From assembly GCA_036374835.1 (NCBI GenBank), contig DASUTB010000005.1:32708-96707 (forward strand): DNA of 64,000 nucleotides, read 5' to 3'. The position numbers and the translations under genes are program-made. The number at the start of each line of letters is the position of its first letter. Position 1 is the first letter of the stretch. A model generated the notes under the pieces. It searched no databases and was not told where the DNA came from. It worked only from the letters and a program-made list of their open reading frames with translations. This document shows, piece after piece, positions 2,944 to 62,019 of this stretch. This stretch comes from Jiangellaceae bacterium (GTDB taxonomy: Bacteria; Actinomycetota; Actinomycetes; Jiangellales; Jiangellaceae).

Positions 2944-3003
2944 CCGTGTGTGAGCCAGCTTCCGGGTCGGGACGCCCGGCCACCCAACTCAGTAAGGATG
3001 AGC

Positions 3004-4068
3004 ATGGATCAACGTGATGGAAACAAGAGTCGCCAGGACGGGGCCGGCCTGCTCGACCGGCTGGCCGCCGGGCCGGTCGTCTGCGCCGAGGGTTACCTCT
3101 TCGAGCTCGAGCGGCGCGGCTACCTGCAGGCCGGTGCGTTCGTCCCGGAGGTGGTGCTCGAGCATCCCGAGCAGGTGTCCGCGCTGCACGAGCAGTTCGT
3201 GCACGCCGGCTCGGACGTCGTCGAGGCGTTCACCTACTACGCCCATCGGGAGAAACTGCGGCTGATCGGCCAGGAGCACCTGCTCGAGCCGATGAACACG
3301 ACGGCGCTGGCGCTGGCGAGGGAGGTCGCGAAGCGGCACGGAGCGTTGCTGGCCGGCAACGTCTGTAACACGAACATCTACGACCCGAGCGACCCGGCCA
3401 CCGGGGATCAGGTGCGGGCCATGTTCACCGAGCAGGTTCAATGGGCGGCCGACGCGGGCGTGGATTTCGTGATCGCCGAGACCATCCGTTACGTCGGCGA
3501 GGCCGAGATAGCGCTGGAGGCGATCCGTGCCGCTGACCTCCCGGCCGTCGTCACGCTGGTCGTCGACCGGGACGACCTGATGCGGGACGGTCCCCCGCTG
3601 ATCGAAGCCGCCAAGCGGCTGGCCGGCGCCGGGGCGGACGTAGTGGGGCTGAACTGTGCGCGCGGCCCGGCGACCATGGCACCGCTGCTGGCCGGGCTGG
3701 TCGAGGCGCTGGACGTCCCGGTGGCTGCGCTTCCGGTGCCGTACCGGACCACGCCGGCCCAGCCGACCATGCAGTCGTTGACCGACCCCGCCGCACCGGA
3801 CGACGGCAGGGCGTTCCCCACCGCGCTCGATCCGTTCACGTGCAACCGCTACGAGGTCGCCTCGTTCACCGCGCAAGCCGCGCAGGACGGCGTCCGGTAC
3901 TTCGGTCTGTGCTGTGGCGCCGCCCCACACCATGTGCGGGCGATGGCCGAGGCGCTGGGACGCACGCCGCCGGCCAGCCGCTACTCGGCGGACATGTCCA
4001 AGCACGTCTACCTGGGTACCGACCCGGGCCTGGCCGCGCACAACCGCGAGTACCGCACGCGACTCTGA
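3004..4068 (+). CDS. Homocysteine S-methyltransferase family protein (BHMT-like, pterin-binding fold)
   Basis: Family-like motifs GLLDRLAAGPVVCAEGYLFELERRGY and GLNCARGPATM. AAGGA ribosome-binding site 5 nt upstream of ATG 3004. Confidence 0.75.
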   Translation: MDQRDGNKSRQDGAGLLDRLAAGPVVCAEGYLFELERRGYLQAGAFVPEVVLEHPEQVSALHEQFVHAGSDVVEAFTYYAHREKLRLIGQEHLLEPMNTTALALAREVAKRHGALLAGNVCNTNIYDPSDPATGDQVRAMFTEQVQWAADAGVDFVIAETIRYVGEAEIALEAIRAADLPAVVTLVVDRDDLMRDGPPLIEAAKRLAGAGADVVGLNCARGPATMAPLLAGLVEALDVPVAALPVPYRTTPAQPTMQSLTDPAAPDDGRAFPTALDPFTCNRYEVASFTAQAAQDGVRYFGLCCGAAPHHVRAMAEALGRTPPASRYSADMSKHVYLGTDPGLAAHNREYRTRL

Positions 4069-28987: not shown

Positions 28988-29806
28988 GTGAGTTCCCTCG
29001 ATGAGATCGCCGCTGAGCTGTACGGCACGCCGCCGGACAAGTTCGTCGCGGCGCGCGATGAGTACGTGAAGCAGGCTCGTGCGTCCGGCGATCGCGCATT
29101 GGCCAGTGAGCTGGGCAAACTGCGGCGGCCGACGCAGGGCGCATGGCTGGTCAACCAGCTGGTACGCGACGACAACCCGGCACTGGGCGAGCTGTTCGGA
29201 TTGGCCGAGGAGTACGCCGCGGCGCTGGCCGAGCGAGACCGAGACCGGCTCAAGGAGCTGACGAACCGTCGGCGTGATCTCGAGGCCCGGCTCGTGGCGC
29301 GGGCGGATGAACTCGGCGTCGAAGCGGGCGCACCACCGAGCGACGAGACGCTGGGGGAGGTGCGCGGGACGCTCGACGCCATCGTTTCGGATCCGGACGT
29401 CGCCGAGCAGGTGCGTGCCGGACGCCTCGTGAAGGCGGCGGGTGCGTCCTGGGGCCCATCACCGTCACCTCCACGCAAAGCACCGGCGCGCAAGTCTGCC
29501 GGCAAGACGCCTGCGGAGGTGAAGCCGACCGAGGACACGAAGACTACGGACGACGCCCGCGCCGCCCTCGAAGCGGAACGGGCCGCCCGTGCCGCGCGGG
29601 ACCACGCTGCCGCCGAGCTCGCCGAACGCACGTCCGAGGCAGACCAGGCGAATGCCGAGTACGAACGGCTCAGCGAACGTCTTGAACAACTGCGCGCGGA
29701 CGTTCAGGCGCTTGCCCAGGACGTCCGGGTCGCGCAGCAGAACGCGGCCCGCGCCGAGCGGCGGCGCGCCAATGCCGAGCGGAACCTGAGGAGACTGGAC
29801 GCGTAG
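28988..29806 (+). CDS. Hypothetical protein, charged coiled-coil C-terminus
   Basis: GTG start. The opposite-strand 336-aa ORF is S/A/R low complexity and was rejected. Confidence 0.5.
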   Translation: MSSLDEIAAELYGTPPDKFVAARDEYVKQARASGDRALASELGKLRRPTQGAWLVNQLVRDDNPALGELFGLAEEYAAALAERDRDRLKELTNRRRDLEARLVARADELGVEAGAPPSDETLGEVRGTLDAIVSDPDVAEQVRAGRLVKAAGASWGPSPSPPRKAPARKSAGKTPAEVKPTEDTKTTDDARAALEAERAARAARDHAAAELAERTSEADQANAEYERLSERLEQLRADVQALAQDVRVAQQNAARAERRRANAERNLRRLDA

Positions 29807-29930
29807 GTGACGTAAGGTGCCGTGCCCAGCCGATCCTCCGGCCGGTTCGACGCATGTTTCTCACCTGATCGCCACCGACGTGGCGATCAGGTGAGCGATC
29901 CGCCCTTACGAGCCGTCCCGGAGCGCCGCG

Positions 29931-30197
29931 TCACACGTTGAGGTGTGCCGGCTCGTGCGTCACGTCCTCGATCTCACCGGCAGCCTTGTCGAGGAGCTCG
30001 TGCACGAGGTGCGACAGCGCGCGAGCCGTCGCGATCTCCTCGCCGATCTGCGGCCTTGCCGGGTCGGAGGGGTTGCGGCGCGCGTGGCCGTTCGCGGTCA
30101 GCTCCGTACCGTCGGCGAGGTGGATCGTCGCCTTGGCGTCGGTGCGAGTGTCGTCCTCGGTGAACGTGACGGTGACCGTCCATTGTCCGGTCTTCAT
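29931..30197 (-). CDS. DUF1876 protein, Rv1738/Rv2632c dormancy-associated family
   Basis: 88 aa, aligns with Mtb Rv1738 as I recall it (WTV...NP.D...IGEEIATARALS.L...H.IE.VTH.PA). GGAGGTG ribosome-binding site before the ATG. Confidence 0.8.
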   Translation of the reverse strand: MKTGQWTVTVTFTEDDTRTDAKATIHLADGTELTANGHARRNPSDPARPQIGEEIATARALSHLVHELLDKAAGEIEDVTHEPAHLNV

Positions 30198-30282
30198 GGT
30201 TTCTTCACCTCCGGATATCTACTTTGTGAGGCATCTACGGACTTTGGCCGGGCTGCAGGCGCCGTTTGGCCGGGGCTTCGGC

Positions 30283-30299
30283 GCTTAACGTGATCATTC
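30283..30299 (-). repeat. Box copy 1: GAATGATCACGTTAAGC, 10 nt past the baeRF stop
   Basis: Read directly. Mini-ORF MITLSAEAPAKRRLQPGQSP. About 60 nt of extended similarity to copy 6. Confidence 0.7.
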
Positions 30300-30309
30300 G
30301 AGGGGGCAC

Positions 30310-31506
30310 CTACCAGCGGAGTAGGGCGCCGATACCGTCCGTGTCGGCGAGCGGCTCGGCGGCCGAGCCGTCCAAGACCGTCACCCGGGCGCCTTCGCGC
30401 AGCGCCATGTCGATCATGCGTTCGTCAAGGCGGGGCTCAGGCTCCAACGCCTGCGGGTCGACGTCCGGCACGGTCTCGGACTCGGCGACGAGCCGGCCGT
30501 CCGGCGTTCGGTTGCCCGTCCACGCCCCGTCCGCCGACAGCAGCAGGTGCGCCACACGCCCCTCGTTCAAGGCTGCGAGTGTTCTGGACAGCCCGCACGA
30601 GCCGCCGTCACTGTTGTCGCTCATCGCGGCGTTGCGCACCCGTTCGGCCAGCCGCCCGTAGCGTGCGATGCGTGCTTTATCGAGCGGTTCGCGGACCACA
30701 CCGGCAAGCTTCGTAGCCGACAGCGACGTCCCCGTGTGATGCGTCCGGACGACGTCCGCGCCGAGGTGCTCGGGGATGGTCTCGGCCACGGCGTGCACGT
30801 TCTTGGGGTCGCCCGCGATCACGACACATTCCCAGCCGAACTCGCGCGCATGGTCGGCGACGCGCGGACCGAGCGTGTGCAGGTATTGGAGCAGCCGATC
30901 CTCTTCCCGCTTGTCGAACAGGTCGTGATGCGAGGCGCTGCTGTGATGCGTCGTCGTCGGGGTGGCGTGGCCCTTTCCGGTTAGCTCGCGCCGGTCGGCG
31001 AGGTCCTCCGGATGTGCGATCGTCGCCACCTCGGTCACCGAACCCATGCGTATGTCCACGAGACGGACTTCGTGCGCGCCGACGGCGACGCATCCGGCCG
31101 GCGGGGCGGCACTCCACGCTGTCAGCAGCGGTCGCAGCGCGGGGCGAGGTCCCATCTCCACCTGATCCGACAACGGCATCTGAACGGTCAGCCTTTCGAC
31201 ATGACCGTTGCTGAGCGTTGCGAACATGGCCCTACCGCGGCCCGGTGCGCGGGCGTCCAGCACCGCTTCGACGTCCTGGTTCAGCTCGTTGAGCCGGTTG
31301 CCGATCGTCGAGAAGCGGTCCCGTGGGCTGGACTTGCGAAGCTCGTCCCGCAGCCGCTTCAAGTCCTTGCGGACCCGGGCCTGCCACGCGGGTTGCGATC
31401 CCTCGTCGGTGGGATCCGCCGTGGCGTACAGCGACAGCACACCGATGTCGTCACTCATATCCGCCAGGCCGCGTAACGTCGCCCAATCGAGAGACACGGT
31501 GCTCAC
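30310..31506 (-). CDS. eRF1-domain (baeRF/Rv2629-like) protein
   Basis: 398 aa. Call rests on overall resemblance to the mycobacterial Rv2629-like peptide-chain-release-factor-like family. Confidence 0.55.
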   Translation of the reverse strand: MSTVSLDWATLRGLADMSDDIGVLSLYATADPTDEGSQPAWQARVRKDLKRLRDELRKSSPRDRFSTIGNRLNELNQDVEAVLDARAPGRGRAMFATLSNGHVERLTVQMPLSDQVEMGPRPALRPLLTAWSAAPPAGCVAVGAHEVRLVDIRMGSVTEVATIAHPEDLADRRELTGKGHATPTTTHHSSASHHDLFDKREEDRLLQYLHTLGPRVADHAREFGWECVVIAGDPKNVHAVAETIPEHLGADVVRTHHTGTSLSATKLAGVVREPLDKARIARYGRLAERVRNAAMSDNSDGGSCGLSRTLAALNEGRVAHLLLSADGAWTGNRTPDGRLVAESETVPDVDPQALEPEPRLDERMIDMALREGARVTVLDGSAAEPLADTDGIGALLRW

Positions 31507-31591
31507 CCCCTACGGCTCGCGCGTCTACTCTCGTATCCCGAGGTTACGCTTTGCCGGCGGGGTCCGTCCCTAGGTTGGCCGGGCAAACTTG

Positions 31592-32677
31592 CTATGGCCG
31601 CTTGGCGCCCACGAACGGTTTGTACGACCCGCCGGCCTGCATGGCAGGAGCGGTGGTCACGTCCGTGCGCGGATTGGACGCGTGCACGACCGTTCCGTTC
31701 CCGATGTACATCGCGACATGGCTGATCGGGCTGCCATAGAACAGCAGATCACCAGGGGCCAATTCGTTGGCCGATACGGGAGTGCCGACGCCGTATTGCG
31801 CACTCGATGACCGGGGAAGACCGACGCCGACGGTGCCGTATGCCCAGCTCGTCAGGCCGGAGCAGTCGAAGGCGTCCGGCCCCGCGGCACCGTAGGAGTA
31901 GGGGTAGCCGACTTTGGAGAGCGCCGCTTGGACCGCGGCAGTCGCCCGCTCGCCGGCTGTGACATCGGCTCCGTCGTCGACATCGGCCCCGTCGTCGGTG
32001 GCCGTGATCCGGTGCGTGGCTTCGGACCGGTCCGCCTTAGCGGCTGCGCGTTCGCGCTCCTCCCGCCGGCGCAGTTCGGCCTGCTGCTCGGCGGTGAGCC
32101 GCTCGAGCAACTCCTGTTGTTGGGCGAGCAACTCCTCGACCGAGTTGCGTTCGGCTCGAAGCGTCGCTTCGATGTGCTCGAGGCGGCGCTCCTGCTCGGC
32201 GGCCATGAGTCTGGCCTGCTCGAGCGAGATCCGCTCGGCGGCGAGCGTCTCGAGCCGGTCGTTCTGCAGTTTCGCAAAGGCGTCCAACGTGGACGCGTCG
32301 GCAAGGTACTGGCCGATGTCGTCGGACAGCAGAGCCGAAACCGCAGGTTCGACGCCGGCGCCTCGGTAGACCGCGGCGGCGAACCCGCCGACCTCAACGG
32401 TCAGCGCGTCGAGACGTTCGGTCTGGCGATCAACTCGCGACTTGGCGCGGTCCAGTTCGCGCTGGGCGTCGGCAAGCTGTTCGGAGGCGATGTTGTGCCG
32501 CTCGTTGGCTTCGGCGGCCTTGGCATGGAGTCTGTCGACCTGGGTCTGGACCTCGTCGAGAGTCGGCTGCGGGTCGGCCCCGACGGCCGAGCCGCCGATC
32601 ACCGCCATGGCCGAAGCGGCGCTGGCGGCCACGACGATCCGGGCAAGGTGCAGTCGATTGCGGGGCTGTTGTGGCAC
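31592..32677 (-). CDS. NlpC/P60 (C40) peptidoglycan endopeptidase with N-terminal coiled coil (RipA-like)
   Basis: Catalytic motif DCSGLTSWAY plus H/H. Signal peptide. GTG start. Confidence 0.85.
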   Translation of the reverse strand: MPQQPRNRLHLARIVVAASAASAMAVIGGSAVGADPQPTLDEVQTQVDRLHAKAAEANERHNIASEQLADAQRELDRAKSRVDRQTERLDALTVEVGGFAAAVYRGAGVEPAVSALLSDDIGQYLADASTLDAFAKLQNDRLETLAAERISLEQARLMAAEQERRLEHIEATLRAERNSVEELLAQQQELLERLTAEQQAELRRREERERAAAKADRSEATHRITATDDGADVDDGADVTAGERATAAVQAALSKVGYPYSYGAAGPDAFDCSGLTSWAYGTVGVGLPRSSSAQYGVGTPVSANELAPGDLLFYGSPISHVAMYIGNGTVVHASNPRTDVTTAPAMQAGGSYKPFVGAKRP

Positions 32678-32689
32678 CGCGGGTCACCC

Positions 32690-32840
32690 TTCCTTCCGCG
32701 TCCGCCTACCGAGTTAGCTGACGGGTTTGGGCGGGGAAGGCGCCCTTCGGCCACCGGTGGCGGCCGACTCACCCCGGGGAAGTGATGGGTCCCCGGTTCC
32801 AGCCTTTGGGCCGGATTCGGCGGGAAGCGAGCTGTCGGTC
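32690..32840 (-). ncRNA. c-di-AMP riboswitch (ydaO/yuaA class) in the leader of the NlpC/P60 gene
   Basis: Transcript-sense sequence GAAUCCGGCCCAAAGGCUGGAACCGGGGACCC...CCCCGGGGUGAGUCGGCC...GGCCGAAGGGCGCC...CCCAAACCCGUCAGCUAACUCGGUAGGCGG matches the hallmark ydaO blocks as I recall them (GAAUCCGG, GGGGUGAAUC, CCCGAACCCGUCAGCUAACCUCGUA). This riboswitch class is known to precede rpf and NlpC/P60 genes in Actinobacteria. Confidence 0.65.
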
Positions 32841-32915: not shown

Positions 32916-32932
32916 GAATGATCACGTTCGGT
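32916..32932 (+). repeat. Box copy 2: GAATGATCACGTTCGG, heading an ~85-bp element (32916-33000)
   Basis: Read directly. Internal palindrome gtagcttcacgaggcatgc/atgcctggtgaagctat. Confidence 0.7.
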
Positions 32933-48930: not shown

Positions 48931-49776
48931 ATGGTTCCGTTGCCGACTTGTTGCTCGTTGTGCCGGGTATCGTGCCGGCGGGATGGGAAAATTCACCGTG
49001 TGCCATCGCTGTTCGCCGCCGGGCTCGTAGCGGTACTGGCTCTCGCGTCCGCCGCCGGGAGCCCGCTTCTTGCTGCCGGAGTAGTCCTCGTCCAGGGCAT
49101 CTTCGCGTTCGGCGCGGTCCGGCAGGCAGGTGTACCCGGTGCGGCCGTGGCGACGTGGCTTGCCTTCGGGGTCGGTGCCGGTACGTCGGTCTGGTTCGTC
49201 GTGGACGACATTCCGAAACTCACGCCGATGGCCCGCCTGCTCGCCGCCGGGTTCCTGCTCGCCATCGTGGTTCAGTTGTGGCGCCGGCATGGACGGCCGT
49301 TGCTGACGGCATCGTTGTCTGTCACGGTGACAGCTGTGGTACTGGCCGCTCTCCCTGCCGCGCTCGTCGCGCTTCGCACTGGCGACGCGGGTGCGTACGC
49401 GGTCGGGCTGGGCCTGTTGGGGGTTGCAATCGTCCTGGTGGTGGACGGCGTGGGTGGGCGCTCGGTGCTGGCGCGAATGCTGGCGGTGCTCGCCGCCGCC
49501 GCGGCCGCCGTGATGCTCGTGATGCTGGTCAGCATGGCGGATGTGCCTGAGGTGGGCGCTGTCGTTCTGGCCGCCTTCGGAGCGTTGCTCGCCGTAGCGG
49601 CCCTGTATGCGGTGGATCGGCTGGCCGCAGAGTCATCCACAGGTGAGAAACAGCCGGACGGTGGCGGCGACATCCTGGAGTTGGTGGCGGTCGACATACG
49701 GCCGTTGCAGCTCACCTTGCCGATCATCATGGCGGCGCCGGTGATTTACCTTTTGGGGCGATTGTTGATCGGATGA
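48931..49776 (+). CDS. Hypothetical polytopic membrane protein
   Basis: Hydrophobic, A/L/V-rich with multiple predicted transmembrane segments. Start uncertain. Confidence 0.45.
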   Translation: MVPLPTCCSLCRVSCRRDGKIHRVPSLFAAGLVAVLALASAAGSPLLAAGVVLVQGIFAFGAVRQAGVPGAAVATWLAFGVGAGTSVWFVVDDIPKLTPMARLLAAGFLLAIVVQLWRRHGRPLLTASLSVTVTAVVLAALPAALVALRTGDAGAYAVGLGLLGVAIVLVVDGVGGRSVLARMLAVLAAAAAAVMLVMLVSMADVPEVGAVVLAAFGALLAVAALYAVDRLAAESSTGEKQPDGGGDILELVAVDIRPLQLTLPIIMAAPVIYLLGRLLIG

Positions 49777-50357
49777 TCGGGCGGCGGGATGAACCATCGG
49801 CCTGGAGGAGACGTTCCTCCGGTATGCCGACGTCCGTCGCTGATGAGGAGCTCGTCCGGACGCTGTATGACGAGCATGCCGGCGCGCTACTCGGCTATGT
49901 GACCCGGCTCCTCGGCGGTGACCGGCAGCGTGCTGAGGATGTCGTCCAGGAGACCTTGTTCCGCGCGTGGCGGCACCCGGATGCGCTCACTCCCGAGCGG
50001 GGTTCGGTGCGCCCGTGGTTGTGGACCGTCGCGCGACGGGTCGTGCTGGACGGCGAGCGCGCCCGCCGCGCCCGGCCGCGCGAGGTGACCGACGCGACGG
50101 TCCCGGCGGCGCTCGTCGACGATGGTGTCGAAGCGGCGTTGTCGGCGCAGGTCGTGGCCGAGGCTCTGCGGGCGCTGACGTCGGAGCATCGCCAAGCTTT
50201 GATCGAGACGTACTACCGCGGCCGGAGCGTCGCCGAGGCCGCCGAGGTGATGGGAGTACCGGAAGGAACCGTGAAATCGCGCACGTACTACGCGCTGCGG
50301 AACCTGCGCTCCGCGCTGGAAGAGCGCGGCTTCGGTGCATCGGAGGCAGGCTCATGA
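49773..50357 (+). CDS. ECF (sigma-70 family) RNA polymerase sigma factor
   Basis: Regions 2 and 4. Alternative start at ATG 49824. Confidence 0.85.
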   Translation: MIGRRDEPSAWRRRSSGMPTSVADEELVRTLYDEHAGALLGYVTRLLGGDRQRAEDVVQETLFRAWRHPDALTPERGSVRPWLWTVARRVVLDGERARRARPREVTDATVPAALVDDGVEAALSAQVVAEALRALTSEHRQALIETYYRGRSVAEAAEVMGVPEGTVKSRTYYALRNLRSALEERGFGASEAGS

Positions 50358-51052
50358 GCTCGCCGCAGTGCCGCGCGATCCGGCTCGAACTCGGCGCGTA
50401 CGTGCTCGGGCTACTCGATGCCGGCGACGAGCAGCGGGTCCGCGAACACCTCGTCCGGTGCGACGAATGCGCGGTCGAAGCGGCGTCGTTGCGCGAGACG
50501 AGTAAGGTGTTGGCGCTCACCGATGTGGGCCTGGTGGAACAGCCGGCCGAGCCGTCACCTGAGGTACTGCCCAAGTTGCTCCAGCGGATCGCCGCGGCGC
50601 GCCGGCGCCGCCGGATCGCTGGGGTCGTCGCGGCGGCCGCCGCTGCTGCGGTCGTGACGGTGGGCGGCATCGCGTTCTTGGACGCGGCCGACGACTCGCC
50701 CGGCGCGAGCGTTGAAGCCGGCGACGTGAGCACCGAGCCGGCGGTGACGACGTCCGGCCGGGACGGCACCGTTGCGGTCGAGGTGGACGTCTGGGATCGT
50801 GACTGGGGCTCGAAGCTCACGGTCGACGTCTCCGGCGTTCCGGCCGGCTACCGCTGCAGCCTCATCGCGATCGGCGGCGACGGCCGGCGCGAGACCGCGG
50901 CGACATGGGTCGTGCCGAGCGCCGGATACAACGAGGGCGGCGGCGGTCTGACAATGGACGGCGCACACGGTCTGCGGTACTGGGAAGTCGACCGGTACGA
51001 GGTAGTCACGTCCGACGGTGAGCTGCTCGTCACGCTCCCGCTTGTCGATTGA
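50354..51052 (+). CDS. Zinc-dependent anti-sigma factor (HxxxCxxC), membrane-spanning
   Basis: HLVRCDECAV motif and a transmembrane segment. Start overlaps the sigma-factor stop (ATGA). Stop codon lies inside box copy 3. Confidence 0.75.
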   Translation: MSSPQCRAIRLELGAYVLGLLDAGDEQRVREHLVRCDECAVEAASLRETSKVLALTDVGLVEQPAEPSPEVLPKLLQRIAAARRRRRIAGVVAAAAAAAVVTVGGIAFLDAADDSPGASVEAGDVSTEPAVTTSGRDGTVAVEVDVWDRDWGSKLTVDVSGVPAGYRCSLIAIGGDGRRETAATWVVPSAGYNEGGGGLTMDGAHGLRYWEVDRYEVVTSDGELLVTLPLVD

Positions 51053-51063
51053 TCACGTTCGGT
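51047..51063 (+). repeat. Box copy 3: GATTGATCACGTTCGG, heading an ~89-bp element (51047-51135) with 25-bp terminal inverted repeats
   Basis: Inverted repeats 51045-51069 and 51111-51135 read directly. About 80% identical to the 32916-33000 element. Confidence 0.7.
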
Positions 51064-51177
51064 AGGAGTGACGTAGCTTCACGAGGCATGCGGGCCTAGG
51101 GAAGATACGACACTCCTGCCGAACGTGATCAATCGACATCGGGAACAGACGTTGGCGGCGAGTGCGTTGAGGCGAGC

Positions 51178-53207: not shown

Positions 53208-53503
53208 GCTGCGCAGCGCCGGAGGGGGGCGCGTCTCTCGAAGGAGTCGATGTCGGATCCGAGGCGGTCATCCAGGGTGTCGTGAAGGCCGGTGGCGGCC
53301 CGGTCGGCGGTGCGTACGTCCGGCTGCTGGACCGCAGCGGCGAGTTCACCGCGGAGGTGCCGACCGGCGACGGCGGCGAGTTCCGCTTCTTCGCCGCACC
53401 GGGCGAGTGGACGCTGCGCACGCTCGCTCCAGGCATCGAGCCTGTCGACCAGCCGGTGCAGGCGTCGCTCGGCGCCGTGGCTGACGTCGAGATCACCGTC
53501 TGA
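53204..53503 (+). CDS. DUF1416 (SseC-like) protein
   Basis: Translationally coupled to the rhodanese (ATGA). Mtb-like cysA2-sseC2 pairing. Confidence 0.7.
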   Translation: MSCAAPEGGASLEGVDVGSEAVIQGVVKAGGGPVGGAYVRLLDRSGEFTAEVPTGDGGEFRFFAAPGEWTLRTLAPGIEPVDQPVQASLGAVADVEITV

Positions 53504-53518
53504 ATGACCACGTTAAGC
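53502..53518 (+). repeat. Box copy 4: GAATGACCACGTTAAGC, fused to the SseC stop (cTGAATGAcc), followed by a 17-bp hairpin
   Basis: Read directly. Mini-ORF MTTLSR. Flanking inverted repeats at 53518-53534 and 53556-53572. Confidence 0.7.
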
Positions 53519-54321: not shown

Positions 54322-54338
54322 GCTTTACGTGATCATTC
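54322..54338 (-). repeat. Box copy 5: GAATGATCACGTAAAGC
   Basis: Read directly. Extended similarity to copy 6 (…AGCGCC…CCCCAGCCAA…). Confidence 0.65.
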
Positions 54339-59900: not shown

Positions 59901-62019
59901 CGCGGCCGACCGCTACGACGAGGGCTATGAACGCGGCGTGCACGACGAGGACGCCACCGCGATCCTCGAGGCGCTGCTGCGCCTGCACGCCGGCGCGGGC
60001 GTGCTGCGGTATCCGCCGGACGTGCGCGCGGCGGTGCAGCTGTACTGGGCGTTCGGCGCCTCGGACGACGACAAGGCGTCCTGGGTCGCCCGCGTGGGCT
60101 CGCTCGCGCGGGCGCGCGCCGCGTTCGGGCATGCCAGCGGGATCGCCGAGCTGTGCGCTGAGGCCGGTGGTGCGGTGGCGTCATTCCTCGGCGGAAACCT
60201 GGGTGAATCCACTGTCGCTATAGGTGCAGCAGATTCACCCGGGATCGTTCCGCGCCTGCCGTCTCTTACCGGATCGCGGGCGTCGCTCGCCGGTGAGTAT
60301 CTCTTCGAGGAATTGGCGAGCCAGCCGGACGGGTTCGTGACCGGTGCGGCGGCCAAGCGCCTGCTGCGGCGGTTCCAGCGCAAGCTCGGGGGTGCCCGGT
60401 CGGTATCGCGGCGGGCGTTGGACGGTGAGCTGCGCGCGCTCAGCGACGATCTGGCGGCCCGCCATCAGCTCCTCACGGCGTGGCTGAGCTCCTATGTCGC
60501 GGCTGCGGACGGCGCGGAACCGGCCGCCGAGGCGGACCTGGCCGAGGCGGTGACGCTGGAGCTGTGCGGCCGCGAGGTGACGCACTACGATTCGTCGGCC
60601 GAGCTGGAGGCGACGGTCGAAGGCTTGCTCGGCACGCACCGGCGAATCGCGGACCGCACCATGACGCTACGGCTGGACGAGACGTTGGCCCGCACGCGTG
60701 AGTTCCGGATCGAGCGGGTGCCCGCCTACCGCGACTACCAGCGGCAGCGAAACGCCCTTGTCGAGGCCGAGCGGTCGCGCCTACGTGTGGGCGAGTACCA
60801 GCCCGGTGTGCTCGCCGGCTTCGTCCGCAACCAGCTGCTTGACCAGGTCTATCTGCCGCTGATCGGGGACAACCTGGCCAAGCAGCTCGGCACCGCCGGC
60901 GACGACAAGCGCACCGATCTGTCCGGTCTGCTGATGCTGATCTCACCGCCGGGCTACGGCAAGACCACACTGATGGAGTACCTGGCGAACCGGCTCGGAC
61001 TGGTTTTCGTCAAGGTCAACGGGCCGGCGCTCGGGCATGGTGTCACGTCCATCGATCCGGCGGACGCGCCGAACGCCACCGCGCGCCAGGAAGTCGAGAA
61101 GATCTCCTTCGCGCTGGAGATGGGCAACAACGTGCTGCTGTATCTGGACGACATCCAGCACACGTCGCCGGAGCTGCTGCAGAAGTTCATCTCGTTGTGC
61201 GACGCGCAACGCCGGATGGAGGGCGTCTGGGACGGCCGGACGCGCACCTACGACCTGCGGGGCAAGCGGTTCGCCGTATGCATGGCCGGCAATCCGTACA
61301 CCGGGGCCGGACGGCGGTTCCGGGTGCCGGACATGCTGGCCAACCGGGCCGACGTGTGGAACCTGGGCGACGTGCTGGCGGGGCGGGACGAGCTGTTCGC
61401 GCTGAGCTACATCGAGAACTCTCTGACGTCCAACGCGGTGCTGGCGCCGCTCGCCGGACGGTCGGTCGCCGACCTCAAGCTGCTGCTGCGGCTGGCCCGC
61501 GGCGACGACTCCGCAAGCCCGGACCAGTTGGAGCACAGCTACCCGCCTGCCGAACTCGACCAGGTGCTCGCGGTCCTCGGCAAACTGACCCATGTGCAGC
61601 AGGTGGTGCTGGCGGTGAACCAGGCCTACATCGCGTCCGCCGCGCAGGCGGACGCCTCCCGCACCGAGCCGCCGTTCCTGCTGCAGGGTTCGTACCGCAA
61701 CATGAACCGGCTCGCCGAGCGCATCGTGCCGGCCATGAACGACGACGAACTGGCCGCGCTGATCGACGACCACTACGCCGGGGAGGCCCAGACGCTGACG
61801 TCCGGCGCGGAGGCGAACATCCTGAAGCTGGCCGAGCTACGTGGCCGCCTCACGCCGGAGCAAGCTGAACGCTGGGCTGAGGTAAAGGCCGGCTATCTGC
61901 GGGAGAGGGCGCTCGGCGGTGCCGAGGACGACCCGATCACCCGTGCCGTCGGTGCCGTCGGCCTGCTCGCCGACCAGGTCGCCGCCGTCGAATCCGCCAT
62001 CCGTTCCCACTCAGAATGA
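56977..62019 (+). CDS. Giant (1680 aa) uncharacterised protein with C-terminal AAA_5 (MoxR/dynein-like) ATPase module
   Basis: Start overlaps the flotillin stop (GTGA). Walker A LISPPGYGKTTL, Walker B VLLYLDDIQH, sensor-1-like CMAGNP. N-terminal ~450 aa and the central helical region have no obvious family. Confidence 0.8.
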   Translation: MTATLDAGTYELLRTRLAEHAGELARRAEQLNQRRIEVFGGTELTLVGTERIRTENNCVPRDIVPLGGDRDLLLLGYNVFIGLKPETTVGDVFAVHEFRRGDDGGFSFEPVGTDVLLDEQFERDFAELYRYYRDTRLMQLRRTGPSVLAVFQTGPNDDDIRVLRWRIGENGALTYVDNRGERENVLPPSHDFEWTETTREDHVPGRYPHISIEDEVFVDTLGGDLTVSVENNTETGEGIYREPVTEPLQSLADADVHYARVGPLILLRIRPYNETEWRHLVFNTRTHGVVRLDGIGQACQRLPEDHGIIFPGGYYLATGVSRTFDTDVTNLEFQRLIRSPNGEDVLYVFHARAEGRSLLLPYNVIRKQVDTPIYCHGYSVFGDGTLVVFRATSDEPTRVHPMQVWRSPYMSESYAASQPAGTGPLERVGNADLVRGISDCLSVTRMLDEMAPSTPVFEGIIAACRRVADQFHWLDDPELFSLGEPLREVRSAAEQVLGELETVEALTAQAATALDEAEADIASLVRRVRGEAPRAASAWVSQLAELHRAEGHLVTLRELRYADVERIDELAASLEADVADAAKRAVTFLQRDDAFADYHREVERLAGAATEIRTVAEAAPVDEELTEQAEALAIVTEVVGTLDIADATVRTAILGRISEVLAGVNRTRAVLAARRRELLEAENRAAFAAEFALLGQAVSSGLALADTPEACDEQLGRLLLTLENLEARFGEFDDFMADLEAKREDVYEAFSARKQALLDERARRAGRLAESADRILGSVRRRVGSLGSLDEVNTYFASDPMVAKLRSLADDLRELGDLVRAEELDGRIKAARQEAARALRDQLDLYEGNTIRLGRHRFAVHSEPIELTMVPGVRPAAGASAPTDHTGGSAAVDAVMNFVLTGTDYRAPVHDEAFAATRRFWDQLLVSESPDVYRGEYLASTILAAASEGRDGLSLDGLHEAAVVDGGLLDVVRSVAADRYDEGYERGVHDEDATAILEALLRLHAGAGVLRYPPDVRAAVQLYWAFGASDDDKASWVARVGSLARARAAFGHASGIAELCAEAGGAVASFLGGNLGESTVAIGAADSPGIVPRLPSLTGSRASLAGEYLFEELASQPDGFVTGAAAKRLLRRFQRKLGGARSVSRRALDGELRALSDDLAARHQLLTAWLSSYVAAADGAEPAAEADLAEAVTLELCGREVTHYDSSAELEATVEGLLGTHRRIADRTMTLRLDETLARTREFRIERVPAYRDYQRQRNALVEAERSRLRVGEYQPGVLAGFVRNQLLDQVYLPLIGDNLAKQLGTAGDDKRTDLSGLLMLISPPGYGKTTLMEYLANRLGLVFVKVNGPALGHGVTSIDPADAPNATARQEVEKISFALEMGNNVLLYLDDIQHTSPELLQKFISLCDAQRRMEGVWDGRTRTYDLRGKRFAVCMAGNPYTGAGRRFRVPDMLANRADVWNLGDVLAGRDELFALSYIENSLTSNAVLAPLAGRSVADLKLLLRLARGDDSASPDQLEHSYPPAELDQVLAVLGKLTHVQQVVLAVNQAYIASAAQADASRTEPPFLLQGSYRNMNRLAERIVPAMNDDELAALIDDHYAGEAQTLTSGAEANILKLAELRGRLTPEQAERWAEVKAGYLRERALGGAEDDPITRAVGAVGLLADQVAAVESAIRSHSE

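What the first reader, a model, noticed from the sequence alone, without database searches (positions are those of the whole stretch)
29931..31506. Rv1738/Rv2632c-like DUF1876 protein adjacent to an Rv2629-like eRF1-domain protein
The 88-aa protein aligns convincingly with the M. tuberculosis dormancy (DosR-regulon) proteins Rv1738/Rv2632c. The upstream gene resembles Rv2629, which in Mtb lies in the same locus as Rv2632c. Conservation of this pairing outside mycobacteria would point to a functional two-gene module, possibly ribosome-associated (release-factor-like plus a small dimeric protein). Box copy 1 sits in the 112-nt spacer between them.
Basis: partly seen in the sequence, partly recalled or inferred. 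Interest (0 to 1): 0.55.

Follow-up and report, generated by a model that had tools for sequence, protein, structure and literature searches.

The report
Balon hibernation factor beside DUF1876 gene
Two neighbouring genes of a Jiangellaceae actinobacterium encode a relative of the ribosome-silencing protein Balon and a small Rv1738/Rv2632c-like stress protein, but the two sit side by side only in this bacterial lineage, so this is an ordinary local arrangement and not a widespread two-gene machine.

Summary
Two minus-strand ORFs, 30310-31506 (398 aa) and 29931-30197 (88 aa), are separated by 112 nt, and a repeated box lies in the spacer.

- **88-aa protein:** a full-length PF08962 (DUF1876/Rv2632c-like) member. 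Its model matches Rv1738.
- **398-aa protein:** an aeRF1-like baeRF protein. Since 2024 this family is known as Balon, a ribosome hibernation factor. It belongs to the MSMEG_1130 lineage and is only remotely like Rv2629. Its model superposes on ribosome-bound MSMEG_1130 (TM 0.82/0.87). It has no GGQ or NIKS motif.
- **The pairing:** conserved only in the window's own clade, where Balon identity is at least about 52% and the synteny is NlpC/P60-Balon-DUF1876. Among 80 DUF1876 loci from representative genomes, 70 have no detected baeRF gene within 8 kb. Three Jiangellaceae loci carry the pair. Seven Streptomyces loci show a looser DUF1876-PolX-baeRF_family2 layout.
- **Other contexts:** more distant MSMEG_1130-type genes lack DUF1876 neighbours. 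DUF1876 otherwise sits in varied stress-gene islands.

Best reading: two probably co-expressed stress genes in a lineage-specific arrangement, not a general module. A direct Balon partnership for DUF1876 is not excluded but is unsupported. The protein is acidic, unlike Rv1738.

The parts
30310..31506 (-). Gene for a Balon-type (bacterial aeRF1-like, MSMEG_1130 lineage) ribosome hibernation factor. The maximal ORF is 398 aa. The probable true start is the GTG at 31497, giving 395 aa.
   Evidence: Pfam baeRF families 10, 2 and 5. NCBIfam MSMEG_1130_fam_RHF 249 bits, below its cut-off of 480. PDB 8v9j_z E 5.7e-33; profile 6e-110. AF2 model pLDDT 88, Foldseek TM 0.82/0.87 to 8v9l_z. No GGQ or NIKS.
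30916..30987 (-). Region encoding residues 174-197 of the Balon homologue. This is a His-rich loop, ELTGKGHATPTTTHHSSASHHDLF, at the place of the aeRF1 GGQ loop. It is specific to the clade and strongly conserved within it.
   Evidence: In the alignment of 59 homologues, MSMEG_1130-type proteins carry ERAGQIGGGPxGQFH here. The AF2 model has pLDDT below 50 for residues 174-189.
30198..30309 (-). 112-nt spacer between the two genes. It has no terminator-like site and no stable RNA fold. A GGAGGTG Shine-Dalgarno sequence lies at 30206-30212, 8 nt before the ATG.
   Evidence: Sequence read directly. Fold z-score +1.27. No promoter or terminator consensus site. No Rfam match.
30262..30299 (+). Box copy 1. 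The core AACGTGATCATTC is at 30287-30299, with the upstream flank GTTTGGCCGGGGCTTCGGCGCTT. As written it is oriented antisense to both genes. The core lies 89-101 nt upstream of the DUF1876 ATG.
   Evidence: 7 copies with at most 1 mismatch against 0.04 expected. Flank alignment. No copy of the core with at most 1 mismatch in any locus L001-L084, including L005-L007; no conserved box in the aligned spacers of L005-L007, L089 and L091.
29931..30197 (-). Gene for an 88-aa DUF1876 / Rv2632c-like protein. The fold is three beta-strands followed by one long helix. It is acidic, with net charge -7 and pI 5.2.
29860..29895 (.). Perfect 16-bp inverted repeat with a 4-nt loop, 36 nt past the DUF1876 stop. 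It lies between DUF1876 and the convergent 272-aa gene (28988-29806, +). It is probably a bidirectional terminator without a U-tract.
   Evidence: the repeat finder I1. RNA fold -50 kcal/mol, z-score -3.9, 0 of 200 shuffles as stable. The consensus terminator scan did not call it because it has no T-run.
31592..32832 (-). Upstream context on the same strand: an NlpC/P60 hydrolase gene (31592-32677) preceded by a c-di-AMP riboswitch (32688-32832). It ends 85 nt before the Balon gene. The NlpC/P60-Balon-DUF1876 order is kept in relative L091.
   Evidence: Pfam NLPC_P60 4.9e-23. Rfam RF00379 75.9 bits, E 7.6e-16. L091 gene table.

Best explanation
This is a lineage-specific juxtaposition of two stress or dormancy genes in a Jiangellaceae genome.

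Upstream gene. It encodes a divergent member of the Balon family, in the MSMEG_1130 lineage of bacterial aeRF1-like proteins. By homology to cryo-EM structures, it should enter the A site of 70S ribosomes during stress or stationary phase, together with EF-Tu. [quoted passage not shown] It has no GGQ or NIKS motif; the GGQ-loop position carries a clade-specific His-rich loop.

Downstream gene. It encodes a small protein of the Rv1738/Rv2632c fold, which is presumably homodimeric as those proteins are. Its own activity is unknown.

Expression. The two genes share a strand. The 112-nt spacer has no terminator and a strong hairpin follows the second gene, so they are probably expressed together. 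DUF1876 may also have its own promoter.

The pairing. It is inherited within this clade as part of an NlpC/P60-Balon-DUF1876 block. Elsewhere DUF1876 genes sit in varied stress islands. The shared theme is therefore membership of a stress or dormancy gene set, not an obligate two-protein machine.

Shown here: the family and fold assignments, the local anatomy, and the distribution of the pairing. Inferred: ribosome binding of this particular protein, co-transcription, and stress induction.
For: Balon identity:
- Pfam baeRF families above gathering score.
- Full-length match to PDB Balon MSMEG_1130, 5.7e-33 by phmmer and 6e-110 by profile.
- Model TM 0.82/0.87 to ribosome-bound 8v9l_z, then P. 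urativorans Balon, Rv2629, aRF1/eRF1 and Pelota.
- No GGQ or NIKS. A beta-hairpin at residues 331-341 in the C-terminal domain.
- MSMEG_1130 and Rv2629 bind the A site and inhibit translation in vitro about 15-fold (PMC10901736).

DUF1876 identity.

Local anatomy.

Clade-limited pairing:
- Adjacent pair in Jiangellaceae MAGs L005-L007, in L089 at 52% Balon identity, and in L091 at 57%, which also keeps NlpC/P60 upstream.
- The two homologue lists share longest-contig lengths, so the pair is co-resident in close relatives.

Absence elsewhere:
- 70 of 80 DUF1876 loci have no baeRF gene detected by my HMMs within 8 kb. Pfam on 123 mid-sized neighbour proteins did not show baeRF among the 25 commonest families.
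- Micromonospora, Nonomuraea and L090 Balon genes lack a DUF1876 neighbour.

Stress-island contexts of DUF1876:
- DnaK-GrpE, Rpf/LysM/M23, phosphoribosyltransferase and HIT.
- Sigma-70-type factors among the commonest neighbours.
- CBS/BON, USP, HSP20 and diadenylate cyclase.

Rv1738 and Rv2632c are upregulated in starved M. tuberculosis (PMC7856553).
Against: - No expression or binding data exist for this organism.
- The protein scores below NCBIfam's equivalog cut-off (249 against 480). Its central loop differs from MSMEG_1130, so its behaviour on the ribosome could differ.
- In relatives L005, L006 and L091 the two genes are 385-414 nt apart with a small opposite-strand ORF between them. 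That argues against obligatory co-transcription.
- baeRF genes lie near DUF1876 in 2 of 26 synteny groups. This is somewhat more than the roughly 0.3-1.2% chance per group that I assumed (binomial p about 0.003-0.04). It hints at more than shared regulon membership.
- No stress-regulator site was identified: a DosR-box search was negative.
Confidence: 0.7

Rival explanations
1. A true two-component hibernation module. The DUF1876 dimer is the partner of Balon on the ribosome and takes the role that RaiA/HPF plays next to Balon in other bacteria. It would occupy the decoding region or mRNA channel, or bind Balon or EF-Tu, so that both are needed for full silencing.
For: - Balon genes are most often adjacent to raiA, and baeRF-HPF neighbourhoods are a known conserved theme (PMC10901736; PMC6514570). 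Here DUF1876 occupies that position.
- The Rv1738 dimer was reported to resemble HPF (Bunker 2015, as quoted in PMC7856553 and PMC12928254).
- The pair is conserved down to 52% Balon identity.
- There is an independent DUF1876-PolX-baeRF_family2 linkage in Streptomyces.
- Rough enrichment p of about 0.003-0.04.
Against: - 70 of 80 DUF1876 loci and all 5 extra contexts lack any detected baeRF gene nearby.
- More distant MSMEG_1130-type genes lack DUF1876.
- The protein is acidic (net -7, pI 5.2), as is most of the family (median pI 5.15), and like Rv2632c. Rv2632c is said to lack the positive belt proposed for rRNA binding.
- In close relatives the genes are split by an opposite-strand ORF.
- Rv2632c belongs to another operon and another expression cluster than Rv2629.
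- No DUF1876 protein has been reported in any hibernating-ribosome structure I could find.
Confidence: 0.15
2. Coincidental neighbours. The two genes are unrelated in function and regulation. Their adjacency is a frozen accident of one lineage's gene order.
For: - The pairing is restricted to one clade and sits in a larger syntenic block, UDG-CSD-NlpC/P60-Balon-DUF1876-DUF309-YjbQ.
- Spacer length and content vary: 112 nt here, 95 nt in L089, 173 nt in L007, and 385-414 nt with an inserted ORF in L091, L005 and L006.
- DUF1876 contexts are highly variable: 26 synteny groups among 80 loci.
Against: - Both families have independent links to starvation, hypoxia or stationary phase.
- They share a strand, with no terminator between them and a strong hairpin after the second gene.
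- A second, independent co-localisation with another baeRF family exists in Streptomyces.
- Proximity also occurs in M. tuberculosis, from the gene numbering Rv2629 to Rv2632c.
Confidence: 0.13
3. The 398-aa protein is a catalytically active alternative release or rescue factor (a peptidyl-tRNA hydrolase), as was once suggested for baeRF family 10, and not a passive hibernation factor.
For: Burroughs and Aravind noted a conserved glutamine in the catalytic loop of baeRF family 10 and allowed for hydrolase activity (PMC6514570). The best Pfam hit here is family 10.
Against: - There is no GGQ anywhere in the protein.
- The position aligned with the family's AGQ is Lys, or Arg in some relatives, in this clade.
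- The structurally closest protein, MSMEG_1130, is described as lacking GGQ and as acting as a hibernation factor.
Confidence: 0.02

Closest known systems
Balon, the MSMEG_1130 ribosome hibernation factor of Mycolicibacterium smegmatis (PDB 8v9j, 8v9l; Helena-Bueno et al., Nature 2024, PMC10901736)
   Same: Full-length sequence homology (5.7e-33 by phmmer, 6e-110 by profile). The same three-domain aeRF1-like fold (TM 0.82/0.87). No GGQ or NIKS. A beta-hairpin insert in the C-terminal domain. The upstream NlpC/P60 gene carries a c-di-AMP riboswitch.
   Different: Identity is only about 26-27% in the structural alignment. The score is below the NCBIfam equivalog cut-off (249 against 480). The central loop ERAGQIGGGPxGQFH is replaced by a longer, clade-conserved His-rich loop, ELTGKGHATxTTTHHSSASHHDLF. 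A DUF1876 gene lies downstream, which the sampled MSMEG_1130-type genes of Micromonospora and Nonomuraea lack.
Rv2629, the M. tuberculosis Balon homologue (PDB 8v9k)
   Same: The same superfamily and fold (Foldseek E 3.5e-16, TM 0.63/0.68). It lies in the same genomic neighbourhood as a DUF1876 gene, Rv2632c.
   Different: It is a distant paralogue. The profile E-value is only 1.1e-05 and covers the C-terminal half. NCBIfam Rv2629_fam gives 70.7 bits against a cut-off of 320. In M. tuberculosis two genes intervene, and Rv2632c is transcribed with Rv2633c on the other strand.
Rv1738 and Rv2632c of M. tuberculosis (PDB 4wpy/4wsp, 2fgg); Pfam PF08962
   Different: In charge it resembles Rv2632c (net -8 over the aligned part, against -6 for Rv2632c) and not Rv1738 (net 0). 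No DosR-box-like site is nearby. It is directly downstream of a Balon gene, which neither Mtb protein is.
Balon-RaiA and baeRF-HPF gene neighbourhoods (PMC10901736; Burroughs and Aravind 2019, PMC6514570)
   Same: A small protein gene lies next to a baeRF/Balon gene, and the small protein's family has been proposed on structural grounds to be HPF-like.

Membership tests
Balon / bacterial aeRF1-like (baeRF) hibernation factors | Sequence membership in Pfam baeRF families above the gathering score | tested here: met
   PF18854 51.9 bits (cut-off 27.1), PF18844 38.5 bits (26.9), PF18846 35.8 bits (27).
Balon / bacterial aeRF1-like (baeRF) hibernation factors | Three-domain aeRF1/Pelota-like architecture that superposes on ribosome-bound Balon | tested here: met
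   AF2 model pLDDT 88.2, pTM 0.85. Foldseek 8v9l_z E 6.1e-33, TM 0.82/0.87. P. urativorans Balon 8rdw_B TM 0.66/0.71. aRF1, eRF1 and Pelota follow.
Balon / bacterial aeRF1-like (baeRF) hibernation factors | Absence of the GGQ (peptide release) and NIKS (stop-codon reading) motifs | tested here: met
   Neither string occurs in the protein. The loop at the GGQ position reads TGKGHAT....
Balon / bacterial aeRF1-like (baeRF) hibernation factors | [quoted passage not shown] | tested here: inconclusive
   The only HP dipeptide starts at residue 165 (IAHPEDL), in the middle domain. I made no residue-level alignment to P. urativorans Balon, so equivalence could not be judged.
Balon / bacterial aeRF1-like (baeRF) hibernation factors | Beta-hairpin insertion in the C-terminal (EF-Tu-binding) domain | tested here: met
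   The model has strands at 331-333 and 339-341 in the C-terminal domain. This region aligns with MSMEG_1130.
Balon / bacterial aeRF1-like (baeRF) hibernation factors | Binds the A site of 70S ribosomes with EF-Tu and inhibits translation under stress | not testable with these tools
   Shown only for P. urativorans Balon, MSMEG_1130 and Rv2629 (PMC10901736).
NCBIfam NF052288, MSMEG_1130 family ribosome hibernation factor (equivalog) | Score at or above the curated cut-off of 480 bits | tested here: not met
   249.1 bits over profile positions 3-387 of 387. It is a related but more divergent subfamily.
NCBIfam NF052289, Rv2629 family ribosome hibernation factor (equivalog) | Score at or above the curated cut-off of 320 bits | tested here: not met
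   70.7 bits. The profile of the window's relatives hits Rv2629 (8v9k_z) at only 1.1e-05.
DUF1876 / Rv2632c-like (PF08962) | Full-length match above the gathering score | tested here: met
   109.8 bits against 25; residues 5-85 on profile positions 2-82 of 82.
DUF1876 / Rv2632c-like (PF08962) | Fold of three beta-strands plus one long helix, as in Rv1738 and Rv2632c | tested here: met
DUF1876 / Rv2632c-like (PF08962) | Homodimer with antiparallel helices wrapped by a six-stranded sheet | not testable with these tools
   Described for Rv1738 (PMC12928254). Only a monomer could be modelled here.
HPF / RaiA (S30AE) hibernation factors, considered for the 88-aa protein | Sequence membership in the S30AE/HPF family | tested here: not met
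   No Pfam or NCBIfam hit other than PF08962.
HPF / RaiA (S30AE) hibernation factors, considered for the 88-aa protein | HPF-like fold with a basic rRNA-binding surface | tested here: inconclusive
   The pair is adjacent only in the window's clade (L005-L007, L089, L091). 70 of 80 DUF1876 loci have no detected baeRF gene within 8 kb. One Streptomyces group has DUF1876-PolX-baeRF_family2. Four more distant MSMEG_1130-type loci lack DUF1876.

The most novel reading that the evidence does not exclude
DUF1876 proteins (Rv1738, Rv2632c and this one) are a further class of ribosome-hibernation accessory factor that works together with Balon. In Jiangellaceae the DUF1876 dimer would replace RaiA as Balon's partner. 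That would explain why it occupies the raiA position next to a Balon gene, and why DUF1876 turns up again near other baeRF paralogues in Streptomyces and M. tuberculosis. If so, this operon would give the first genomic handle on the long-unexplained function of Rv1738, one of the most strongly induced dormancy genes of M. tuberculosis.
Probability: 0.15. Interest if true: 0.65.

Novelty: new member of a known kind. Interest (0 to 1): 0.3.

Why it matters
The Balon assignment is routine annotation. It does correct labels still in use: 'VLRF1 family aeRF1-type release factor' and 'hypothetical protein'.

The useful residue is narrower. The function of the DUF1876 family is still unproven, and that family includes Rv1738, a flagship dormancy gene of M. 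tuberculosis. The only idea on record is a structure-based guess that it mimics HPF.

A lineage in which a DUF1876 gene sits directly behind a Balon gene is a convenient place to test that idea. Stationary-phase ribosomes can be purified and inspected to see whether both proteins are on them.

My survey tempers expectations. The linkage is rare, the protein is acidic, and most family members sit in general stress islands. The likeliest outcome is shared regulation, not a shared complex.

Tried and rejected
1. **Genome-collection scan, first attempts.** A 9-sequence alignment, A3, worked. It samples the [VI]G[EDT]EIA[AT][AS]R[AG] subfamily, and only the best 80 of 380 confirmed loci were kept. 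The Rv1738/Rv2632c-type (IGDELA...) subfamily was therefore sampled only through 5 individual look-ups.

2. **Narrow Balon HMM.** My first HMM was built from the MSMEG_1130 lineage alone and gave only weak hits to the Streptomyces baeRF_family2 genes. I rebuilt it iteratively and cross-checked 123 neighbour proteins with Pfam. That Pfam mode shows only the 25 commonest families, so one or two stray baeRF genes could have escaped notice.

3. **Gene caller.** A crude GC3-based caller missed the DUF1876 gene in 31 loci. I re-ran it seeded with the HMM hit.

4. **DosR box.** The pattern GGGACTWWAGTCCC with up to 3 mismatches gave 2 hits against 3.5 expected, none near the pair. DosR-type control is rejected as unsupported.

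5. **Promoter and terminator scan.** The sigma-70 promoter and intrinsic-terminator consensus scan of 29750-31650 found nothing.

6. **Rfam.** Nothing in the spacer at the gathering score or at E up to 1.

7. **Identity of the box.** By eye I compared it with consensus sites recalled for SigF/SigB, ECF sigma factors, SigD, Crp, Rex, Zur, GlnR and MtrA. None fits. Its orientation relative to flanking genes is not consistent. It remains unexplained.

8. **Bunker et al. 2015 (PMC4394262).** The paper is not held in the library. Its content is cited only through later papers.

9. **Fused Balon-DUF1876 model.** I considered and dropped this test of a complex. The tool returns no inter-chain contacts or PAE, and it would probably refuse a fused sequence.
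Full report
**Observation**

The coordinates hold. Two minus-strand ORFs, 30310..31506 (398 aa, GTG) and 29931..30197 (88 aa, ATG), are separated by 112 nt. The 88-aa sequence is identical to NCBI HEX6194531.1, 'DUF1876 domain-containing protein [Jiangellaceae bacterium]'. The nearest named homologues of both proteins come from Jiangellaceae or Jiangellales MAGs. The window has 67% G+C and comes from such an actinobacterium.

**The 398-aa protein**

- Pfam places it in three overlapping bacterial aeRF1-like families. The best is baeRF_family10, E 1.3e-13.
- NCBIfam's best model is 'MSMEG_1130 family ribosome hibernation factor', 249 bits over the whole model, below the equivalog cut-off of 480. 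The Rv2629 family model gives only 71 bits.
- Against PDB sequences the only phmmer hit is Balon MSMEG_1130 (8v9j_z), E 5.7e-33, residues 6-398 on 7-375.
- A profile of 45 relatives raises that hit to 6e-110. It reaches Rv2629 (8v9k_z) at only 1.1e-05, over the C-terminal half.
- An AlphaFold2 model (pLDDT 88, pTM 0.85) superposes on ribosome-bound MSMEG_1130 with TM 0.82/0.87. Next come Psychrobacter Balon (0.66/0.71), Rv2629 (0.63/0.68), aRF1/eRF1 and Pelota.
- The protein has no GGQ and no NIKS. It has a beta-hairpin at 331-341 in the C-terminal domain.

These features match the description of Balon. Balon is an A-site hibernation factor that binds with EF-Tu, contacts the decoding and peptidyl-transferase centres, and lacks the release-factor motifs. 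MSMEG_1130 and Rv2629 were shown by cryo-EM to bind the A site and to reduce in vitro translation about 15-fold (PMC10901736).

'Rv2629-like' names the wrong paralogue.

One real difference concerns the loop at the place of the GGQ loop. In MSMEG_1130-type proteins it reads ERAGQIGGGPxGQFH. In the window's clade it is a longer, nearly invariant His-rich sequence, ELTGKGHATxTTTHHSSASHHDLF. The model is disordered there (residues 174-189). The glutamine that Burroughs and Aravind noted in family 10 (PMC6514570) is Lys or Arg here. A catalytic release function is therefore unlikely.

Homologues are mostly called at 395 aa. The GTG at 31497 is the likelier start.

**The 88-aa protein**

- It is a full-length PF08962 member, E 6.4e-32.
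- It matches Rv1738 at 1e-12 and Rv2632c at 2e-10.
- The window protein is acidic (net -7, pI 5.2), like Rv2632c (-6 over the aligned part). Rv1738 is neutral (0) over the same part. Family representatives have a median pI of 5.15, and 3% are above pI 8.
- Rv2632c is said to lack the positive belt thought to bind rRNA.
- The family is small: 516 clusters at 50% identity and 4345 at 90%. No paper in the searchable library mentions DUF1876 or PF08962.

**Local anatomy**

- A strong Shine-Dalgarno sequence, GGAGGTG, lies 8 nt before the DUF1876 ATG.
- The spacer has no terminator-like site, no sigma-70 consensus promoter, no stable fold (z +1.3) and no Rfam match.
- A perfect 16-bp hairpin at 29860-29895, 36 nt past the DUF1876 stop, folds far better than shuffles (z -3.9). 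It sits between convergent genes and is a likely terminator.
- Upstream on the same strand, 85 nt away, is an NlpC/P60 gene led by a c-di-AMP riboswitch (RF00379, 75.9 bits).
- Co-transcription of Balon and DUF1876 is thus plausible here, but it is an inference.

The box in the spacer is real. The core AACGTGATCATTC has 7 copies with at most 1 mismatch, against 0.04 expected. It comes in two flank types. Copy 1 points antisense to both genes as written and lies about 90 nt upstream of the DUF1876 start. No copy of the core with at most 1 mismatch occurs in L001-L084, and no conserved box is visible in the aligned spacers of L005-L007, L089 and L091. I could not identify it.

**Is the pairing conserved?**

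*Within the clade: yes.*
- Many homologue pairs share the same longest contig.
- Jiangellaceae MAG loci L005-L007 have Balon immediately upstream of DUF1876.
- L089 (Balon 52% identical) has the pair 95 nt apart.
- L091 (57% identical) has UDG-CSD-NlpC/P60-Balon-DUF1876-DUF309-YjbQ.
- In L005, L006 and L091 a small opposite-strand ORF lies between the two genes, and the gap is 385-414 nt. Co-transcription is therefore not a conserved feature.

*Beyond the clade: mostly no.*
- I scanned one genome per species of GTDB with a DUF1876 pattern. That gave 380 confirmed loci, of which the best 80 were kept. I searched ±8 kb with HMMs built from two baeRF families.
- Only 10 of 80 loci have a baeRF gene. 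Three are the Jiangellaceae loci. Seven are Streptomyces loci with DUF1876-PolX/PHP-baeRF_family2 on one strand (PF18844, 3.6e-38).
- Pfam on 123 mid-sized neighbour proteins of the remaining loci did not bring up any baeRF family.
- Haloactinopolyspora alba (L008) and another Jiangellaceae MAG (L016) have DUF1876 without Balon.
- Five further contexts have none: Saccharothrix, Micromonospora, Kineosporiaceae, an uncultured actinobacterium and Kibdelosporangium.
- From the Balon side, MSMEG_1130-type genes of two Micromonospora genomes, Nonomuraea and L090 (42% identical) have no DUF1876 neighbour.

*M. tuberculosis.* Rv2632c is transcribed with Rv2633c. It falls in a different expression cluster from Rv2629. 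The two are separated by Rv2630 and Rv2631, as the gene numbering shows.

*Statistics.* Grouping the 80 loci by shared neighbours gives 26 synteny groups, 2 of them with baeRF. I assumed a chance of 0.3-1.2% per group, based on a few baeRF genes per 8-Mb genome and a 16-kb window. The binomial probability of at least 2 such groups is then about 0.003-0.04. This is a weak enrichment.

*What DUF1876 does sit next to.* It is repeatedly next to stress genes:
- DnaK-GrpE in Embleya.
- An Rpf/LysM/M23 gene, phosphoribosyltransferase or HIT in Streptomyces.
- Sigma-70-type factors.
- CBS/BON, USP, HSP20 and diadenylate cyclase.

**Mechanism**

Most likely (0.7), these are two stress or dormancy genes that one lineage has placed in tandem.

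- The Balon homologue silences and protects ribosomes by occupying the A site. This is inferred from strong homology and fold.
- DUF1876 is a small, presumably dimeric, stress-induced protein of unknown action. It is probably co-expressed with Balon here.

Rivals:
- A true Balon-DUF1876 partnership in which DUF1876 replaces RaiA (0.15).
- Pure coincidence (0.13).
- An active release or rescue factor (0.02).

**Comparison and novelty**

Both genes are new members of known families. The tandem arrangement is not described in the papers I could search. It is clade-limited.

It does offer a convenient test bed for the unproven HPF-like hypothesis for Rv1738-family proteins. Interest is 0.3. The novel reading would be worth about 0.65 if true, at a probability of about 0.15.

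Noticed in passing
window 30287-30299(+), 32916-32928(-), 51047-51059(-), 51122-51134(+), 53502-53514(-), 54326-54338(+), 62014-62026(-): The 13-nt box AACGTGATCATTC has 7 copies with at most 1 mismatch, against 0.04 expected. All copies are intergenic or at gene ends. There are two flank types. Type (a) is GGTTTGGCYGGGG-N7-GCGCTTAACGTGRTCATTC (30287, 54326, 62014, and partly 53502). Type (b) is GCATGC..CCTCGTGAAGCTACGT..ACCGAACGTGATCAWTC (32916, 51047, 51122); 51047 and 51122 form a back-to-back divergent pair. Nearby genes include the NlpC/P60 riboswitch leader and UDG, a thioredoxin-like gene, an NADase_transloc-domain gene, a membrane protein and YqeY. No known operator or sigma consensus fits.
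   Followed up: partly
window 32688-32832 (-): A c-di-AMP riboswitch (RF00379, 75.9 bits) leads the NlpC/P60 gene at 31592-32677, which lies directly upstream of the Balon gene. A box copy sits about 85 nt upstream of the riboswitch. Read-through could couple Balon and DUF1876 expression to c-di-AMP, but this was not tested.
   Followed up: no
window 30916-30987 (-), residues 174-197 of the Balon homologue: A His-rich loop, GKGHATPTTTHHSSASHHDLF, is nearly invariant among relatives down to about 55% identity. It replaces the AGQIGGGPxGQFH loop of MSMEG_1130-type proteins. It might be a metal- or pH-sensitive element at the peptidyl-transferase-centre end of the factor.
   Followed up: partly
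L005 about 2990-3300, L006 about 1720-2020, L091 6198-6455 (all opposite strand): In several relatives a small ORF of about 85-100 aa with no Pfam family lies on the opposite strand between the Balon and DUF1876 genes. It is absent from the window, where the box occupies the shortened spacer.
   Followed up: no
L039, L041, L051, L070, L080, L082, L083 (for example L080 7992-11251): One Streptomyces group carries [HIT or phosphoribosyltransferase]-DUF1876-PolX/PHP (579 aa)-baeRF_family2 (382 aa) on one strand. This is an independent co-localisation of DUF1876 with a different Balon paralogue, with a DNA polymerase X gene between them.
   Followed up: partly
L044-L077 (for example L058 8448-9641), L029-L037, L093: Recurrent DUF1876 neighbours are dormancy or resuscitation genes. 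An Rpf-transglycosylase/LysM/M23 protein occurs in 19 Streptomyces loci. DnaK-GrpE lies upstream in Embleya. USP, HSP20, DUF1918 and a diadenylate cyclase occur in an uncultured actinobacterium.
   Followed up: partly
window 49773-50357 (+): An ECF-type sigma factor gene (Sigma70_r2 and r4) lies about 700 nt from the divergent box pair at 51047/51122. It is a candidate regulator of the box-bearing promoters, but this was not tested.
   Followed up: no
L084 (Gemmatimonadota MAG JBLMWU010000224.1): A DUF1876 gene 51% identical to the window's is found in a MAG labelled Gemmatimonadota, outside Actinomycetota. This is either horizontal transfer or a binning error.
   Followed up: no
window 28988-29806 (+): A 272-aa Ala/Arg/Glu-rich protein, apparently coiled-coil, is convergent on DUF1876. 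It has no Pfam family and only a weak sub-threshold NCBIfam hit to the Lpp lipoprotein repeat.
   Followed up: no
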